DNA from: a virus
IMG/VR virus record: IMGVR_UViG_3300021959_004274
Span: 28,188 to 92,187 of that record
Direction: 5' to 3' (one strand)
DNA length: 64,000 bases
The notes beneath the pieces are model-generated. The model searched no databases and had not been told where the DNA came from. It saw only the letters and a list, made by a program, of their open reading frames with translations. Shown here in pieces: positions 3,693 to 11,650 of this stretch; the first letter of the stretch is position 1; every line of letters starts with the position of its first letter. The position numbers were made by a program, and so were the translations under genes.

Positions 3693-5096
3693 TTAACTTG
3701 ATTTTAGATTAGAAAGCATCTGCTTGAGCTTGTTGCCTTGTACATCTGCTGTAACTTTGGCTGACTCGCCCTCTGGTTCTGTTACTGTTTTTTCACCAAC
3801 TGTGGTAGTTGTTTTGATAGATTTCATTAGTTCACTAGGATTTGTTTGAGTGTATGCTGACTGTTGATCCTCTGCTAGATCTGTAATACGCAAACTTTCT
3901 ACATTAAACTCTAAGTCTACTTTACTGCCTACACCACTAGAACTTCTAGTTTTCATTAACTGTATTTGATAACGACCACGCTCACGCATAGCTCTCGATG
4001 TAAATATACCAAACACATTATCAGCAGTATTAATTTTACTCAAGCCACCTGCAATATGACTATGATCAAATTCTACTTCTTCAACTGCCGCTCTGTTTAA
4101 CTGCGATGCTGTAACAAAGATAATGTCTAGTTCTTTTGCTAGGTTACGTAACTCTTCACTTACATATTTGTCTTTAACAAACAAATCGTTTGGTGACACT
4201 TTAGCACTCACAGGCATAATCAAATCTAAATAGTCAACACAAAGGAAGTCTACTTTAGTTTTTGTTTGTATTTCTAATTCTTTTAAGTATGCTCTAATGT
4301 CATTAACGTTTGACTGTGCAGGCATATATTTGATTCTAAGTTTACCTGACTTCTTGCCTACAAGTTTAACTTTCATTTCAACATCTTCAAGTTTCTTAAA
4401 GATTTCTTTTGAACTAGTGTTAGTCATCATACTATCAAGTCGCATAGCACACAATCCTTCACTAAGTTCTAGTGTAATGTAAGCACCGTTAAGTCCTAGT
4501 TGGCTCCAGTTCACTGCCAAGTTCTGCATAAACAAACTTTTACCCGAACCAGATCCGCCTGCAAATATCTGTAGTTCACCTCTGTTGAATCCACCATACA
4601 ACGGTCTATCTAATGCTGACCAGCCCGACGACACTTGTCCGTTTTTACTTTTTAATAGTTCAAGTCTGCCTTTAGGATCCTCAAAGTAATCTGTACCCAT
4701 GTCTTTGGTTAACGATATTTGTACAGCATCTTTGATTAATTTTTCTACAGGATTGTAGTTGCCTTTTTCTAACATGTCTGCTGACTTAAGAATAGCACGT
4801 TCTAGTTCTTGACGTCTAGTAAACGACTCAAACTCTTCCATAAACCAACTGTAATGATCATCTGTTAAGTCAGGAAGATGTTGTAGTTTAGTTTTACTAA
4901 CTGCTTGTACTTGCTCAAACGTAGGAATAGCCTTGTGCTTGTCCACATGCTCTTTAATAAATTTGGCCGCTTCTTGTAGACTACGATCAAAGTTTTCTGG
5001 ATTGTAGATATTCTGCACACGGATATAGCTCTGAGCATCCTGTAGCATCATTTCTAAAAATAGTTTTTGTACTTCTAATGTATATTCTGTTGCCAT
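3693..5096 (-). CDS. gp41: DnaB-like replicative helicase
   Basis: Walker A GGSGSGKS, YITLEL, VDYLD, TASQLNR, MKTR. Confidence 0.93.
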   Translation of the reverse strand: MATEYTLEVQKLFLEMMLQDAQSYIRVQNIYNPENFDRSLQEAAKFIKEHVDKHKAIPTFEQVQAVSKTKLQHLPDLTDDHYSWFMEEFESFTRRQELERAILKSADMLEKGNYNPVEKLIKDAVQISLTKDMGTDYFEDPKGRLELLKSKNGQVSSGWSALDRPLYGGFNRGELQIFAGGSGSGKSLFMQNLAVNWSQLGLNGAYITLELSEGLCAMRLDSMMTNTSSKEIFKKLEDVEMKVKLVGKKSGKLRIKYMPAQSNVNDIRAYLKELEIQTKTKVDFLCVDYLDLIMPVSAKVSPNDLFVKDKYVSEELRNLAKELDIIFVTASQLNRAAVEEVEFDHSHIAGGLSKINTADNVFGIFTSRAMRERGRYQIQLMKTRSSSGVGSKVDLEFNVESLRITDLAEDQQSAYTQTNPSELMKSIKTTTTVGEKTVTEPEGESAKVTADVQGNKLKQMLSNLKSS

Positions 5097-5110
5097 GTGT
5101 ATATTATACG

Positions 5111-6082
5111 TTACCTAATAGTTTTAACAAGTCTGCGTTTTGCCAATTCTATCTTGATTTTACTAGTTTCACGACTGTTCATAATAGTTATCAAGGTTCC
5201 TAATCTACCATAATGTTTTACAGCATCGTTAACATCTTTAACATGCTCGGGCCAGTCTGGTATTGATACTGCCCAGCCTAGTTCTACTGCACGATCAATT
5301 AATTTTAGTCCAGCTTCGTCTTGATCAGGCACTACTGTTATCTGTTTGTGCTGTTGTTTTAATATTTGTGCTTGTTTATCACTGACTGTATTGTGTAAAA
5401 CTGCTACTGCGTTAATGCTTAATGCGTCAAACAATCCTTCTACTACCACTAACTGTGTCCAATGTTCTTGTTGTAGATCTAATCCAAACACATAGCCTGC
5501 TTGTTGTTCATTGATATACTTTGGTGTACGATCATCTAAGTAACGTGCTGACCAACCTACTACATCACCTTGATAAGTGTAAGGAACTACAATACGTTTT
5601 GCGTTACGTCCATCAACCTCAGGCGATATCATATAAGGATAGTCTTCCCAATCTATTCCTCTGTTGCGTAAGTATTCTATAAACTCTGCATCACCTGTTT
5701 CTAGTAAGCGTAGTTCTTCAGGTAAGTCCTTATGTTCAAACTCTACTTTAACTTCTACTTCACGCTGTTGTTCTACTAGTTGTGCTATATCCTTATGCTT
5801 AAGACTTTCTAAATTTAACCCTGCTATTGTATTTTGATCTAAGCCCATCCACGATAACAGTTTACGTGCTTTATAACTTAGTGTACGTCCTAGTTTAAAA
5901 CTTGCTTTGAAACCACAGTTAAAACAATGATAACTCCAATCTTCGCCGTTTTGTTTGATACCACCACGTTGTCTTTTATCCTGTCTTTCACCGTTGTGTT
6001 CACAGCAGACAGCATTAAACGATACCCAGCCACTGGAAGTACGTTTATGTTTTGCAGGAATAACAGTCGTAATATCTAACAT
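5111..6082 (-). CDS. gp61: DNA primase (Zn finger + TOPRIM)
   Basis: YHCFNCG, VVEGLFDA, PDQDEAG, KDVND; adjacent to helicase. Confidence 0.9.
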   Translation of the reverse strand: MLDITTVIPAKHKRTSSGWVSFNAVCCEHNGERQDKRQRGGIKQNGEDWSYHCFNCGFKASFKLGRTLSYKARKLLSWMGLDQNTIAGLNLESLKHKDIAQLVEQQREVEVKVEFEHKDLPEELRLLETGDAEFIEYLRNRGIDWEDYPYMISPEVDGRNAKRIVVPYTYQGDVVGWSARYLDDRTPKYINEQQAGYVFGLDLQQEHWTQLVVVEGLFDALSINAVAVLHNTVSDKQAQILKQQHKQITVVPDQDEAGLKLIDRAVELGWAVSIPDWPEHVKDVNDAVKHYGRLGTLITIMNSRETSKIKIELAKRRLVKTIR

Positions 6083-6798
6083 TAAGTTAGTATAACATCA
6101 TTTATTTGAGAATACAACATTTCTGATAAAATTTGGTGACCTTTTTCATTTGGATGATGTCCGGGTGCGTGTATTTGTTTTGTATCTGTACGTGCTTGTA
6201 GTATGTCTTGTAAGTTTTGGTCAGGCCATTCTAGTGTATCTGTATACTCTACCAGAGTTCCAGGATTATATAAGTTAAATTGCATCAACGGAATATTTTT
6301 AGTTTTACTGATACCATCAAAAAAATAAACTGCTTGTTGATAGTTTAGTTTTGATAGCTCATCGCAGTGGCTTAGTGTTAGGTATTGTTTACCAAATTGT
6401 TGCCATTCTTTAGGAATAACATCACTACCAAAGTTTACCCAAGTAGAATGTACATATTTGTTCCACGCTGGATCATTTGAATAACTTACATGTTCTGGAT
6501 TATACCAAGTTTGTCTATCTGGTGCAGTTAGTCCTACTAAACAAAGAGTATCTGACCAATCTGTATTTTCTAAAAACCAAAGGAAGTTCCACATTGTACT
6601 TTGTAGGCTGGCACCTGGGTGTCCATAATTTTCGTAAGGTACACCAAGTTTATCTGCTATGAGTCCTGAAAAGCAATGACTAAGCCTGTAGTCATCATTT
6701 TGTGTAAAGCAACACTCCCATTCAGGATGCGAGGGATCTACTAGTTCATCACCGTAAATCCAACTATCGCCAAATACGGCTAGTTTTTTAATGTTCAA
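6082..6798 (-). CDS. SGNH/GDSL hydrolase-like protein
   Basis: FGDSW block I, NYGHPGAS block II, C-terminal HHPNEKGH. Confidence 0.7.
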   Translation of the reverse strand: MNIKKLAVFGDSWIYGDELVDPSHPEWECCFTQNDDYRLSHCFSGLIADKLGVPYENYGHPGASLQSTMWNFLWFLENTDWSDTLCLVGLTAPDRQTWYNPEHVSYSNDPAWNKYVHSTWVNFGSDVIPKEWQQFGKQYLTLSHCDELSKLNYQQAVYFFDGISKTKNIPLMQFNLYNPGTLVEYTDTLEWPDQNLQDILQARTDTKQIHAPGHHPNEKGHQILSEMLYSQINDVILT

Positions 6799-7568: not shown

Positions 7569-7946
7569 ATGTCAAACGATTTTTTTAAACAACTGTCAGA
7601 GAAGTATCCATTTATCACTGTGGTGATGTATGGCAATGCAGAGTACGTAGGTATTGTGCAGAATCGTGATCACCTAGTGACCACAATGTATGACTTTGGG
7701 CGTATCATTGACATTGAAATGAAACAAAGATTCTTAGAATTAGCAGAAACTTGGTGGTGGGAATCAAACAGATCAATTCCAATTAATATTTTCTTACGTG
7801 AAGAATGGGCTCAGTTTAAACCATTCCTACAAACATTTATTAATAAAGATTTAGAAATATTATACGGTCCTGCCACTTCATTAACAGACCTTGCTAAAAA
7901 GCGTACTAAGAAAAAATCAATTACACTTGTACGCCGAGTAGACTAA
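7569..7946 (+). CDS. Hypothetical protein
   Basis: ORF (likely ATG 7569), WWWESNRSIPINIFL; divergent from 7551 gene. Confidence 0.7.
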   Translation: MSNDFFKQLSEKYPFITVVMYGNAEYVGIVQNRDHLVTTMYDFGRIIDIEMKQRFLELAETWWWESNRSIPINIFLREEWAQFKPFLQTFINKDLEILYGPATSLTDLAKKRTKKKSITLVRRVD

Positions 7947-8515
7947 ACCAATTCACTTAACAAATTCATATGTAAGGCAACCAGTACTGCGTAACTAACT
8001 GCGTGTGCTTTCTTAAAATAATAACTATCATCATCTGGCACCGTCCAAATATCTTCTGCAATAGTTTTCCAGTCTTTGCCTAGCAAGTGTCTTTTGCCTG
8101 GACGTATTAAAGCCAAAAACATAGCCATCCTGGGTATTGAATTTACTTCCATGTTTTTAATAAGATCATAATGATTACCAATGTGTATAATCTTTTCTAC
8201 AAATGATTGATCTTTAAGTAATTCCCAACGAGGTTCTTGATTAAGCATTTGATCATAGTGCTGTTGATCACGAATTAGTTTGTAAACATTAACATTCAAA
8301 AAGTCAATCTTAACATAGCCACGTTCTTCTGCTGACTCATAGTCAATACTAGCACAGTCATTGATTGGATCATAAGGTATTTCAGTTACATACACACCGG
8401 AGTTGTGTCTGCGTACTCCATCCTCACGATCTTGACGAGCAGAAGTATGCTCAATTAGTTTGAGTATATCCTCTCTATCTGCAAAATCAATATCAATGTC
8501 TGACTTAAACTTCAT
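7943..8515 (-). CDS. dnaE: Miniature DNA polymerase III alpha (DnaE/family C) catalytic-core protein
   Basis: SDIDIDF, HNSGVYV, VKIDFLN, ALIRPG, YFKKAHAVSYA in canonical order. Confidence 0.8.
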   Translation of the reverse strand: MKFKSDIDIDFADREDILKLIEHTSARQDREDGVRRHNSGVYVTEIPYDPINDCASIDYESAEERGYVKIDFLNVNVYKLIRDQQHYDQMLNQEPRWELLKDQSFVEKIIHIGNHYDLIKNMEVNSIPRMAMFLALIRPGKRHLLGKDWKTIAEDIWTVPDDDSYYFKKAHAVSYAVLVALHMNLLSELV

Positions 8516-9216
8516 TACCAACCTGCCTGCTTTAACATTTCTCTAAGATATTCTGTATCACCTGGATAATCTTTTAATTTTTTATGCCAACGTTCTGGAT
8601 CAATGAAATCATACACAATAGCTAGTTGTTCTTGTGTTAGGTTTTCTAAAAACTCGTGCCCCGAATCACAGTTAAAAATAGTCCAGCCTGTAATCCGTCC
8701 TGCGGTGATTAAATGACATATCTTGTTTGAGTTACCATACCGTAAAAAATGTTCTGTAGGATTGTTTGTGTCGTATGCCCAAGCAACACCTGTTTCTAAT
8801 GCACGTGTTAGTGCATCTGTTGCTGGTTCTTTGTATACCCATTCTTTTAAGAACTCATCATACAGTTTGTCAGTTCCCCAATAGTCTATACGTTTATTTC
8901 CCTTTAATAACCAATCAGCAAAACGTTCTGCGTTAACCACACGTGCATTAACACAATAGTTGCCAAACTTAATAAATGCTTTATAGTATGCAGATGTAGC
9001 AAAGTCGTCAAATGTTTTTTGTTTTGCTGAGCCTTGTGTTAGTTCATAAAAGCGTATAAAGTTTGTAAAGCCAATCCGACTTGCTGGTGTATCTTTATCT
9101 TGGAAACGTTTCTTTTGTTCGCAGACATGCACAGACAGTGTAGACTCTCTGGCAAATGATCTTTCACAATACTTACATTTATAAGTCAGCTTTAATTCGC
9201 TTGTCGTCCCAGCCAT
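8515..9216 (-). CDS. Zinc-finger (C2H2-like) replication-associated protein
   Basis: YKCKYCERSFARESTLSVHVC. Confidence 0.65.
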   Translation of the reverse strand: MAGTTSELKLTYKCKYCERSFARESTLSVHVCEQKKRFQDKDTPASRIGFTNFIRFYELTQGSAKQKTFDDFATSAYYKAFIKFGNYCVNARVVNAERFADWLLKGNKRIDYWGTDKLYDEFLKEWVYKEPATDALTRALETGVAWAYDTNNPTEHFLRYGNSNKICHLITAGRITGWTIFNCDSGHEFLENLTQEQLAIVYDFIDPERWHKKLKDYPGDTEYLREMLKQAGW

Positions 9217-10164: not shown

Positions 10165-10193
10165 ATTGTATAGTCCTGTTTAAGTTTTGTCAA
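10165..10193 (-). promoter_or_regulatory. sigma70-type promoter TTGACA-17-TACAAT
   Basis: Near-consensus boxes, 17-nt spacer, 6 nt before ATG. Confidence 0.75.
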
Positions 10194-11650
10194 TCTTGCC
10201 ACTCCGTTTTTTCTACCGTAAATGGATAGTTTGCTTCTCGATAAAATTGTTTACGTTTAGTTAAATGCCTTTTAGCAAATTTACAGGTTGATGTTATATC
10301 CCAAATTTGCACAAAATCTTTATCCTCAGCCTTTCTAATGCCTCGACCAATACTCTGAATAACCCGTACAAAACTTTTACCAGGCTCCACAAGCACCAAA
10401 TTGAAAATCCGAGGAATGTTAATACCAACAGCGGCAACACCATAAGTAGCAACAATAACTCTATCGTCCATTGTGGCCACTTCGTCATAGGATTCCTTTC
10501 TATCATTTGCTTTAGTTCCTCCTGAAACAAACACTGATCCAGGTATAAGTTCTGTTAAACGTTTACCTGGTGCTATACGATCTACAAGAATAAGTGTATT
10601 GCCTGACTCTTTAATTGAGTTAATTAGCCCAGCAATATACTTCATGCGGTCTTCTGTTTCTAGTAGATAACGTAATTCACTTTGATAATCTCTGTATTCA
10701 ACGTGATCAACTAACTGTACAATATTAACATGACAGTTTGCCAACACTCCTTCTTGCTGTAGTTCATTTGCACTCAGTCTACCAATAACCTCACCTAAAC
10801 TACATTTCAAACTCATAAACTCATATTCTTCTTTGGGTACTGTACCAGTTAATCCCCAACGTATAGGAACATGTGACATTGGTCCTGTTAATAATGTTCT
10901 AAGTGCATCCGCTTTGGCCATGTGTACTTCATCTACCATGACACAGACTACGTCATGTAAAAACTCATCTATTGTGATATCAATATCTTTAGCACGAGTT
11001 TTCTTCATCATAATGTTTAGACTCTGCCAAGTACAAATAGTATGTGTCTTGCCAAACTCTTTACGATCACCAAAGAACACACCTACGTCTAATCCCATGT
11101 TAATGTAATCTTCTTCAGTTTGCGTGACTAGACTTTTATTTGGAACAATAACTATTGTACGACCATGTGCTTCACATCTATGACTTAGCACAGCAGTGAT
11201 TAAAGTTTTACCTGCACCTGTGGCTACTTCTTGTATGCACTGTGGATTTTCTAAGAACTTATTAACTATCTCAACTTGATAGTCACGTAACATGATTGGT
11301 TGGCCTTTAGCAGGATGGTTAGGTGGCCAAACATAGTCTGCATAACTATCTTCTTTAACTTTTTCAAATCCATAGTTAGTTGAATAGTCACGGATGTCTT
11401 CTAGTTCAATATCATAATTAAACTCTTCTAATACAGGAATAATATCTGGCAATAGGTTAACATAAGTTGATCCACCTAGTTGAAAGAACCCTACCTTACC
11501 ATCCCATCGTCCTAGTCTCACTGCTGGCATATATCTAGCACCTGGGACTTCGTATTTGAATTTATTGGTCAGCGTTTTACGAGCGTCAAGTTCAAGACCT
11601 TCAATCTTTACATTAACTTCATCACGGACTATGATTTTACAATTTCGCAT
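10190..11650 (-). CDS. uvsW: SF2 DNA helicase UvsW
   Basis: LRDYQ, ATGAGKT, DEVH, GLTGT, QSIGRGIR. Confidence 0.92.
   Translation of the reverse strand: MRNCKIIVRDEVNVKIEGLELDARKTLTNKFKYEVPGARYMPAVRLGRWDGKVGFFQLGGSTYVNLLPDIIPVLEEFNYDIELEDIRDYSTNYGFEKVKEDSYADYVWPPNHPAKGQPIMLRDYQVEIVNKFLENPQCIQEVATGAGKTLITAVLSHRCEAHGRTIVIVPNKSLVTQTEEDYINMGLDVGVFFGDRKEFGKTHTICTWQSLNIMMKKTRAKDIDITIDEFLHDVVCVMVDEVHMAKADALRTLLTGPMSHVPIRWGLTGTVPKEEYEFMSLKCSLGEVIGRLSANELQQEGVLANCHVNIVQLVDHVEYRDYQSELRYLLETEDRMKYIAGLINSIKESGNTLILVDRIAPGKRLTELIPGSVFVSGGTKANDRKESYDEVATMDDRVIVATYGVAAVGINIPRIFNLVLVEPGKSFVRVIQSIGRGIRKAEDKDFVQIWDITSTCKFAKRHLTKRKQFYREANYPFTVEKTEWQD

What the first reader, a model, noticed from the sequence alone, without database searches (positions are those of the whole stretch)
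7943..8515. ~190-aa 'mini-DnaE' retaining all family-C catalytic motifs
Seen: DIDIDF, HNSG, KIDFL, ALIRPG and YFKKAHAVSY occur in order within about 175 aa. Established: DnaE is over 1000 aa and these motifs span roughly twice that distance. Here the thumb appears deleted (about 25 aa between DIDF and HxxG), and the PHP, clamp-binding and OB domains are missing, yet the three catalytic Asp remain. It is translationally coupled to Zn-finger and gp62-like genes near primase and helicase, whereas T4-like phages normally use a family-B polymerase. Inference: a minimal polymerase or primer-extender, or one part of a split enzyme, possibly completed by the neighbouring 8515-9216 protein.
Basis: partly seen in the sequence, partly recalled or inferred. 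Interest (0 to 1): 0.7.

Follow-up and report, generated by a model that had tools for sequence, protein, structure and literature searches.

The report
C-terminal half of split mini-DnaE
This 190-residue gene of an uncultured giant phage is real and strongly conserved, but it is only the metal- and template-binding half of a two-piece, stripped-down relative of the bacterial replicative polymerase DnaE, described from sequence in 2021; I found no bench test of it.

Summary
The ORF exists on the minus strand (ATG 8515, stop 7943-7945, 190 aa) and carries the five motifs in DnaE order. A profile of 83 homologues hits only Pol III alpha chains in the PDB (E 1e-5). An AlphaFold model (pLDDT 96.8) aligns over all 190 residues to E. 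coli DnaE 397-779, Taq Pol III alpha and PolC (Z 8.8-9.8; next unrelated fold Z 3.3). D6, D8, K69, D71, R138 and P139 are invariant, H171 is nearly so, and dN/dS is about 0.1. It is not a pseudogene.

It does not hold all catalytic motifs. The nucleotide-binding GS motif sits on a separate 168-182-aa protein encoded 31-108 kb away in relatives, and it is absent from this 92-kb fragment. The thumb and the basic index-finger segment are deleted.

This is the split minimal Pol III alpha of group 2.2 jumbo phages (Iyer et al. 2021, PMC7824862). Two near-complete uncultured relatives also carry a family B polymerase.

The neighbouring zinc-finger protein shows no detectable DnaE similarity by fold. 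The published partner is the distant N-half, and a further role for the neighbour is untested.

This scan has already reached the same verdict on other genomes. Already known; the activity appears untested.

The parts
7943..8515 (-). C-terminal (Mg2+- and template-binding) subunit of the split minimal Pol III alpha, 190 aa. Likely roles by alignment to E. coli DnaE: D6/D8/D71 catalytic; K69 primer-phosphate contact; R138-P139-G140 templating-base contact; Y165 and H171 base-stacking Tyr and steric-gate His.
   Evidence: (phrog_11778 E 6e-62); residue roles in E. coli from the 2026 preprint read
8515..9216 (-). Conserved upstream neighbour: 233-aa all-alpha protein with an invariant C14-C17-H30-C32 zinc finger. 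Its stop overlaps the start of the C-half (TAATG). Function unknown; no DnaE similarity detected.
   Evidence: phrog_11058; upstream on the same strand in 75/80 loci; abutting or overlapping in 38/75
7569..7946 (+). Conserved convergent 125-aa ORF (WWWESNR motif) whose 3' end meets the 3' end of the C-half gene. Function unknown.
   Evidence: same arrangement in 121Q, Paride, Phosso; 37-50% identity; 89 phage records
9179..10158 (-). Two further small genes of the same co-directional gene string (159 aa, phrog_11758; 166 aa, phrog_11279). Function unknown.
10190..11650 (-). UvsW-like SF2 helicase at the head of the gene string.
   Evidence: ResIII, DEAD, Helicase_C, UvsW_N
3693..6082 (-). DnaG-type primase (5111-6082) and DnaB-like helicase (3693-5096) downstream, giving the replication-module context.

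Best explanation
The gene encodes the C-terminal subunit of the two-piece minimal Pol III alpha of group 2.2 (RaK2/PA5oct/Atu_ph07-type) jumbo phages. Shown: it is homologous, in sequence and predicted fold, to the part of DnaE/PolC that runs from the DxD strand of the palm to the helix-loop-helix of the fingers, with the thumb and about 97 residues of the index finger removed. Shown: it keeps the residues that in E. coli Pol III alpha bind the two metals, the primer-terminal phosphate, the templating nucleotide and the incoming dNTP. These include the stacking Tyr and the His that excludes ribonucleotides. Shown in relatives: the preceding part of the palm, with the GS nucleotide-binding motif, is a separate small protein that stops where this one begins, with no intein. 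Inferred: the two chains associate non-covalently to rebuild one Pol-beta-like active site that adds dNTPs to a primer on a template. It would act as an accessory (repair, gap-filling or primer-extension) polymerase beside the phage's family B replicase.
For: Family and homology: phrog_11778 E 6e-62 and a weak DnaE profile match. The PDB profile search hits only Pol III alpha, aligning q53-139 to Eco 538-641 and q151-177 to Eco 740-767. Structure: AF2 pLDDT 96.8. Foldseek's top 14 hits are all Pol III alpha or PolC. VIA-align gives Z 8.8-9.8 over 184-189 residues to Eco 397-779, Taq 458-836 and PolC 968-1294. Conservation: D6, D8, K69, D71, R138 and P139 are 83/83, H171 is 82/83 and Y165 is 60/83. 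Selection and spread: dN/dS 0.09-0.13, 397 clusters at 50% identity that are nearly all 185-210 aa, and at least 599 IMG/VR loci of which 79 of the 80 fetched are intact. Partner: the N-half with GRGSS was found in 121Q, Paride, Phosso and four uncultured relatives, 31-108 kb from the C-half. Both halves give near-identical host-genus tallies across phage records. One 375-aa fused form is colinear with N-half plus C-half. Context: a family B polymerase is present in two near-complete relatives. Literature: Iyer et al. 2021 describe exactly this split minimal Pol III alpha (PMC7824862). Residue roles in E. coli come.
Against: No biochemical test of any member was found. The partner gene is not in this 92-kb fragment (about 25% of a genome), so its presence in this phage is assumed. 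The basic index-finger residues near the dNTP in E. coli (R709, K714, K715) and the DNA-gripping thumb are missing, so efficient templated synthesis is not assured. Physical association of the halves rests on co-occurrence and on a single fused sequence from one 2.4-kb contig. I had no access to the model coordinates, so clustering of the three Asp was not checked directly.
Confidence: 0.8

Rival explanations
1. The N-half/C-half pair is a Pol-beta-fold nucleotidyltransferase that is not a templated DNA polymerase. It might add untemplated nucleotides, modify DNA ends or make a nucleotide signal.
For: The thumb and the basic index-finger segment used by DnaE for DNA grip and triphosphate contacts are deleted. 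The phage already has a family B replicase in relatives. The Pol-beta superfamily contains many non-polymerase transferases (own knowledge).
Against: The residues that contact the templating nucleotide (R138-P139), stack on the incoming base (Y165) and gate against ribose (H171) are conserved. That would not be expected without a template and dNTP substrate. The gene lies in the primase/helicase module.
Confidence: 0.12
2. The 190-aa protein is a self-sufficient minimal polymerase or primer extender.
For: All three catalytic Asp and the finger motifs lie in one chain.
Against: The ORF starts 5 residues before the DxD strand. It therefore lacks palm strand 1 with the R-G-S motif, which lies within 4 A of the dNTP and whose R362A mutation abolishes activity in E. 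coli. That piece exists as a co-occurring separate gene.
Confidence: 0.04
3. It is a decaying or catalytically dead remnant of a DnaE gene, kept at most for a structural or regulatory role.
For: It is very short and gives no Pfam hit.
Against: dN/dS is 0.09-0.13. Catalytic residues are invariant in 83 diverse sequences. Length is constant across 397 clusters. 79 of 80 loci are intact.
Confidence: 0.03

Closest known systems
Split minimal DNA polymerase III alpha of group 2.2 jumbo phages, C-terminal unit (Iyer, Anantharaman, Krishnan, Burroughs, Aravind 2021, Viruses 13:63, PMC7824862; PHROG phrog_11778)
   Same: Same family: phrog_11778 E 6e-62, and 39-50% identity to the copies in 121Q, PA5oct-like phages, Atu_ph07 and Phosso. 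Same length and motifs. Same synteny between the UvsW-like helicase and the primase/DnaB genes. The N-terminal unit is encoded far away in relatives, and two near-complete uncultured relatives carry a family B polymerase.
   Different: This copy is from an uncultured phage fragment; the nearest sequences are 76-85% identical IMG/VR contigs. Its N-terminal partner and its family B polymerase lie outside the 92 kb available.
Bacterial DnaE / PolC (family C replicative polymerases; E. coli DnaE, Taq Pol III alpha 3E0D, G. kaustophilus PolC 3F2B)
   Same: Pol-beta-like palm with DxD plus a third Asp after K-x-D, the RPG templating-base contact, and the Y-x-F-x-K-S-H helix-loop-helix. Predicted fold Z is 8.8-9.8 over the whole protein.
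   Different: 190 aa against 1,160 aa. There is no PHP, thumb, ring or little finger, beta-clamp motif, OB fold or tau-binding domain. The segment equivalent to Eco 643-739 (with R709, K714, K715) is deleted. The GS-motif part of the palm is on another polypeptide.
Cyanobacterial split DnaE joined by a split intein (e.g. Npu/Ssp DnaE)
   Same: A family C polymerase encoded by two distant genes.
   Different: There the full-length enzyme is restored by protein trans-splicing. Here the N-half ends at ...EFL(K/R) and the C-half starts 5 residues before DxD, which leaves no room for intein halves. Any assembly must be non-covalent.

Membership tests
Split minimal Pol III alpha, C-terminal unit (Iyer 2021; phrog_11778) | Full-length sequence match to the family profile | tested here: met
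   phrog_11778 E 5.7e-62, residues 2-188 on profile positions 4-193 of 197.: 93 phage records cover at least 80% of the query.
Split minimal Pol III alpha, C-terminal unit (Iyer 2021; phrog_11778) | Mg2+-binding DxD plus third Asp, and template-binding finger motifs, conserved | tested here: met
   D6, D8, K69, D71, R138 and P139 invariant in 83 sequences; H171 in 82/83.
Split minimal Pol III alpha, C-terminal unit (Iyer 2021; phrog_11778) | A separate N-terminal NTP-binding unit encoded elsewhere in the same genome | tested here: inconclusive
   Found in 121Q, Paride, Phosso and 4 of 5 long IMG/VR relatives. Not found in this 92-kb, roughly 25%-complete fragment, where its expected distance of 31-108 kb puts it off the contig.
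Split minimal Pol III alpha, C-terminal unit (Iyer 2021; phrog_11778) | Co-resident family B polymerase in a T4-type replication module | tested here: inconclusive
   Relatives G001 and G002 have 886-893-aa family B frames. None is present in this fragment. The primase, DnaB-like and UvsW-like genes are present.
Family C DNA polymerase (DnaE/PolC) as a complete enzyme | Three catalytic Asp in a Pol-beta-like palm | tested here: met
Family C DNA polymerase (DnaE/PolC) as a complete enzyme | GS (R-G-S) nucleotide-binding motif in the same chain | tested here: not met
   The ORF begins 5 residues before DxD. No GRGS-type motif occurs in any frame of the contig.
Family C DNA polymerase (DnaE/PolC) as a complete enzyme | PHP domain, thumb, full fingers, clamp-binding and OB domains | tested here: not met
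   The model's 190 residues align within Eco 397-779 only. Eco 433-505 and 643-739 have no counterpart. The whole-contig search with the DnaE profiles finds nothing else.
Family C DNA polymerase (DnaE/PolC) as a complete enzyme | DNA polymerase activity | not testable with these tools
   No assay was found in the searched literature.

The most novel reading that the evidence does not exclude
The minimal Pol III alpha has more than two parts. The 233-aa C2HC zinc-finger protein would be a third subunit that supplies the DNA grip lost with the thumb and index finger. Its gene lies upstream of the C-half in 75 of 80 loci and overlaps its start in this window. The result would be a small primer-extending polymerase tied to the phage primosome.
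Probability: 0.12. Interest if true: 0.7.

Novelty: already known. Interest (0 to 1): 0.3.

Why it matters
A family C polymerase core of about 360 residues in two chains would be the smallest known version of the bacterial replicase fold. Iyer et al. proposed it as a model for the ancestral enzyme. Its role beside a family B replicase in giant phages is open. The value of this window is only as one more, environmentally derived, member. The open question is biochemical and can be addressed with cultured phages such as 121Q or PA5oct.

Tried and rejected
1. Pfam on the ORF gave nothing (only an Imm26 noise hit), and single-sequence phmmer against the PDB gave nothing. Homology needed a profile or a fold.

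2. A search of the 92-kb contig for other DnaE pieces and a family B polymerase found none. This covered PF07733, PF00136, phrog_405, three N-half proteins by tblastn and a GRGS motif scan. The fragment is too short for this to mean absence.

3. The neighbouring zinc-finger protein as the missing DnaE part: Foldseek PDB had no match at E <= 0.001. BFVD returned only an unnamed orthologue. VIA-align against 48,161 chains gave a best Z of 4.2, with Z of about 3 to AAA+ lid and clamp-loader delta helical domains, which is noise level.

4. Its phyletic pattern (93 records) and that of the convergent ORF (89) equal that of the C-half (96). Co-occurrence therefore only reflects the lineage core.

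5. 'gp62-like' neighbour: no Pfam or PHROG support.

6. Fused forms: one 375-aa protein from a single 2.4-kb ENA contig. The 'longer' search found none and it has no relative in IMG/VR.

8. Split intein: excluded by the lengths of the termini.

Full report
**Observation**

The window has a 190-codon ORF on the minus strand. Its ATG is at 8515-8513 and its stop at 7945-7943. The longer TTG start listed by the ORF finder is not supported, because homologues begin MKF(K/T)SD(I/V)DIDF.

| Motif | Residues |
|---|---|
| DIDIDF | 6-11 |
| HNSG | 37-40 |
| KIDFL | 69-73 |
| ALIRPG | 135-140 |
| YFKKAHAVSY | 166-175 |

I read the E. coli K-12 dnaE gene from the held genome. Its counterparts are D401/D403, H511-G514, K553/D555, R639-G641 and F756-Y764. 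They span about 365 residues there and 170 here. The upstream 233-aa gene ends in TAA overlapping the ATG (TAATG).

**Is it DnaE-like beyond chance?**

- Pfam gives nothing.
- PHROGs places the protein in phrog_11778 ('DNA polymerase', E 6e-62), with a weak match to a full-length DnaE profile.
- A full HMMER scan of 1.84 billion cluster representatives finds 397 relatives. Nearly all are 185-210 aa.
- A profile of 83 of them hits only Pol III alpha chains in the PDB (E 1e-5). It aligns residues 53-139 to E. coli 538-641 and residues 151-177 to 740-767.
- The AlphaFold model is very confident (pLDDT 96.8).
- Foldseek's top 14 PDB hits are all Pol III alpha or PolC.
- VIA-align aligns 184-189 of the 190 residues to E. 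coli DnaE 397-779, Taq 458-836 and PolC 968-1294 at Z 8.8-9.8. The next unrelated fold scores Z 3.3.

**What is kept and what is missing**

D6, D8, K69, D71, R138 and P139 are invariant in 83 diverse sequences. D10, H37, G40, K168 and H171 are above 90%. Y165 is Tyr in 60 sequences and Phe in 6.

A 2026 cryo-EM preprint on E. coli Pol III gives the roles of the equivalent residues:

| E. coli residue(s) | Role in E. coli | Here |
|---|---|---|
| D401/D403 | bind metal B | D6/D8 |
| K553 | salt bridge to the last primer phosphate; K553A is dead | K69 |
| R639-P640-G641 | within 4 A of the templating nucleotide | R138-P139-G140 |
| Y754 | stacks on the incoming base | Y165 |
| H760 | steric gate against rNTPs | H171 |

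All of these are retained. The following are not retained in this chain:

- The GS motif (R362-G363-S364), which is within 4 A of the dNTP; R362A is dead.
- The thumb, roughly E. coli 433-505, replaced here by a short beta-hairpin.
- E. coli 643-739, which carries R709, K714 and K715 near the dNTP.
- PHP, the outer fingers, the clamp-binding motif, OB and the tau-binding domain.

'All catalytic motifs' is therefore too strong.

**The partner**

Searching three complete cultured relatives with the DnaE profile found the C-half and a second small ORF. That ORF matches the profile region just upstream of the C-half's match. These ORFs are 169-180 aa. They end ...WG(L/V)GRGSSVASY...EFL(K/N). That is the E. 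coli GPGRGSGAGS...FERFLNPER segment, which stops exactly where the C-half starts.

| Genome | Distance between halves |
|---|---|
| 121Q | 31 kb |
| Paride | 44 kb |
| Phosso | 224 kb |
| Four long uncultured relatives | 43-108 kb (N-half 168-174 aa) |

The termini leave no room for split-intein halves. Across 50,697 phage records both halves give almost the same host-genus tallies: Escherichia 34/34, Salmonella 8/8, Erwinia 8/8, Xanthomonas 4/4, Yersinia 4/4 and Agrobacterium 2/2. The extra N-half hits are full-length phage DnaE genes.

One 375-aa metagenomic protein is colinear with N-half plus C-half. It comes from a single 2.4-kb contig and no other fused form was found. It is therefore weak support.

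In this window's own contig (92 kb, about 25% complete) the N-half is absent. There is no tblastn hit and no GRGS motif in any frame. That is expected given the distances seen elsewhere.

**Selection**

Against the closest IMG/VR copies (76-85% identity) dN/dS is 0.09-0.13. dS is 1.2-1.4, so the ratio is approximate but clearly far below 1. Of 80 fetched IMG/VR loci, 79 have an intact 184-210-aa ORF.

**Context**

The gene sits in a co-directional string: UvsW-like helicase, a 166-aa gene, a 159-aa gene, the 233-aa zinc-finger gene, then the C-half. A convergent 125-aa ORF follows, then a virion-type protein, a lipase-like ORF, DnaG-type primase and DnaB-like helicase. The same order occurs in 121Q, Paride and Phosso.

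Near-complete uncultured relatives carry an 886-893-aa family B polymerase. The PA5oct-like phage MIJ3 is reported to have a split family B polymerase. The mini-enzyme therefore accompanies the T4-type replicase rather than replacing it.

**The zinc-finger neighbour**

- It is very conserved: 686 relatives, with C14, C17, H30 and C32 invariant.
- It lies upstream on the same strand in 75 of 80 loci. It abuts or overlaps the C-half start in only 38 of those 75.
- Its model (pLDDT 88, all-alpha) has no convincing PDB or BFVD match. The best Z is 4.2, with noise-level resemblance to AAA+ lid and clamp-loader delta helical domains.
- Its distribution among phages is the same as that of the C-half and of the convergent ORF. 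This only shows that all three belong to the lineage core.

I found no evidence that it completes the polymerase. The idea remains untested.

**Comparison with what is known**

Iyer et al. [quoted passage not shown] The two parts are the N-terminal NTP-binding subdomain and the C-terminal Mg2+- and DNA-template-binding subdomain. They suggest it may cooperate with the family B enzyme in synthesis of one strand or in repair. That is exactly what is found here.

RefSeq and several submitters already label both halves 'DNA polymerase' or 'DNA polymerase III alpha'. I found no biochemical study. This scan has already reached the same conclusion on several other genomes.

**Verdict**

- The kind is already known, and this is one more environmental member.
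- Most likely mechanism (inferred): non-covalent N-half/C-half assembly into a Pol-beta-like active site that performs template-directed dNTP addition as an accessory polymerase. I put about 0.8 on the two-piece assembly and less on the specific activity.

Noticed in passing
window 7569-7946 (+): A convergent 125-aa ORF with a WWW(E/Q)SNR motif ends against the 3' end of the C-half gene. The same tail-to-tail arrangement and 37-50% identity are seen in 121Q, Paride and Phosso, and the ORF is found in 89 phage records. Function unknown.
   Followed up: partly
window 8515-9216 (-): The 233-aa protein has an invariant C2HC zinc finger and an all-alpha body, and is more conserved than the C-half (about 50% identity across hundreds of metagenomic relatives). 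It has no PDB fold match. Residues 40-126 give only noise-level hits (Z about 3) to AAA+ lid and clamp-loader delta domains.
   Followed up: partly
protein P0035 (ENA metagenome, 2,415-bp contig): A single 375-aa protein is colinear with N-half plus C-half, with a DnaE-like linker before DFDID. It may be a natural unsplit minimal Pol III alpha or an assembly chimera. Its DNA could not be fetched.
   Followed up: partly
L006-L008, just downstream of the N-half genes of Phosso, Paride and 121Q: A conserved 113-153-aa ORF (motif ...N(A/M)(R/K)GD(K/T)(I/L)G...) follows the N-half gene in all three cultured phages. It is a possible further partner.
   Followed up: no
window 6082-6798 (-): A 238-aa ORF with weak GDSL-lipase/acylhydrolase similarity (E 0.016) sits between the virion-type protein and the primase.
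   Followed up: no
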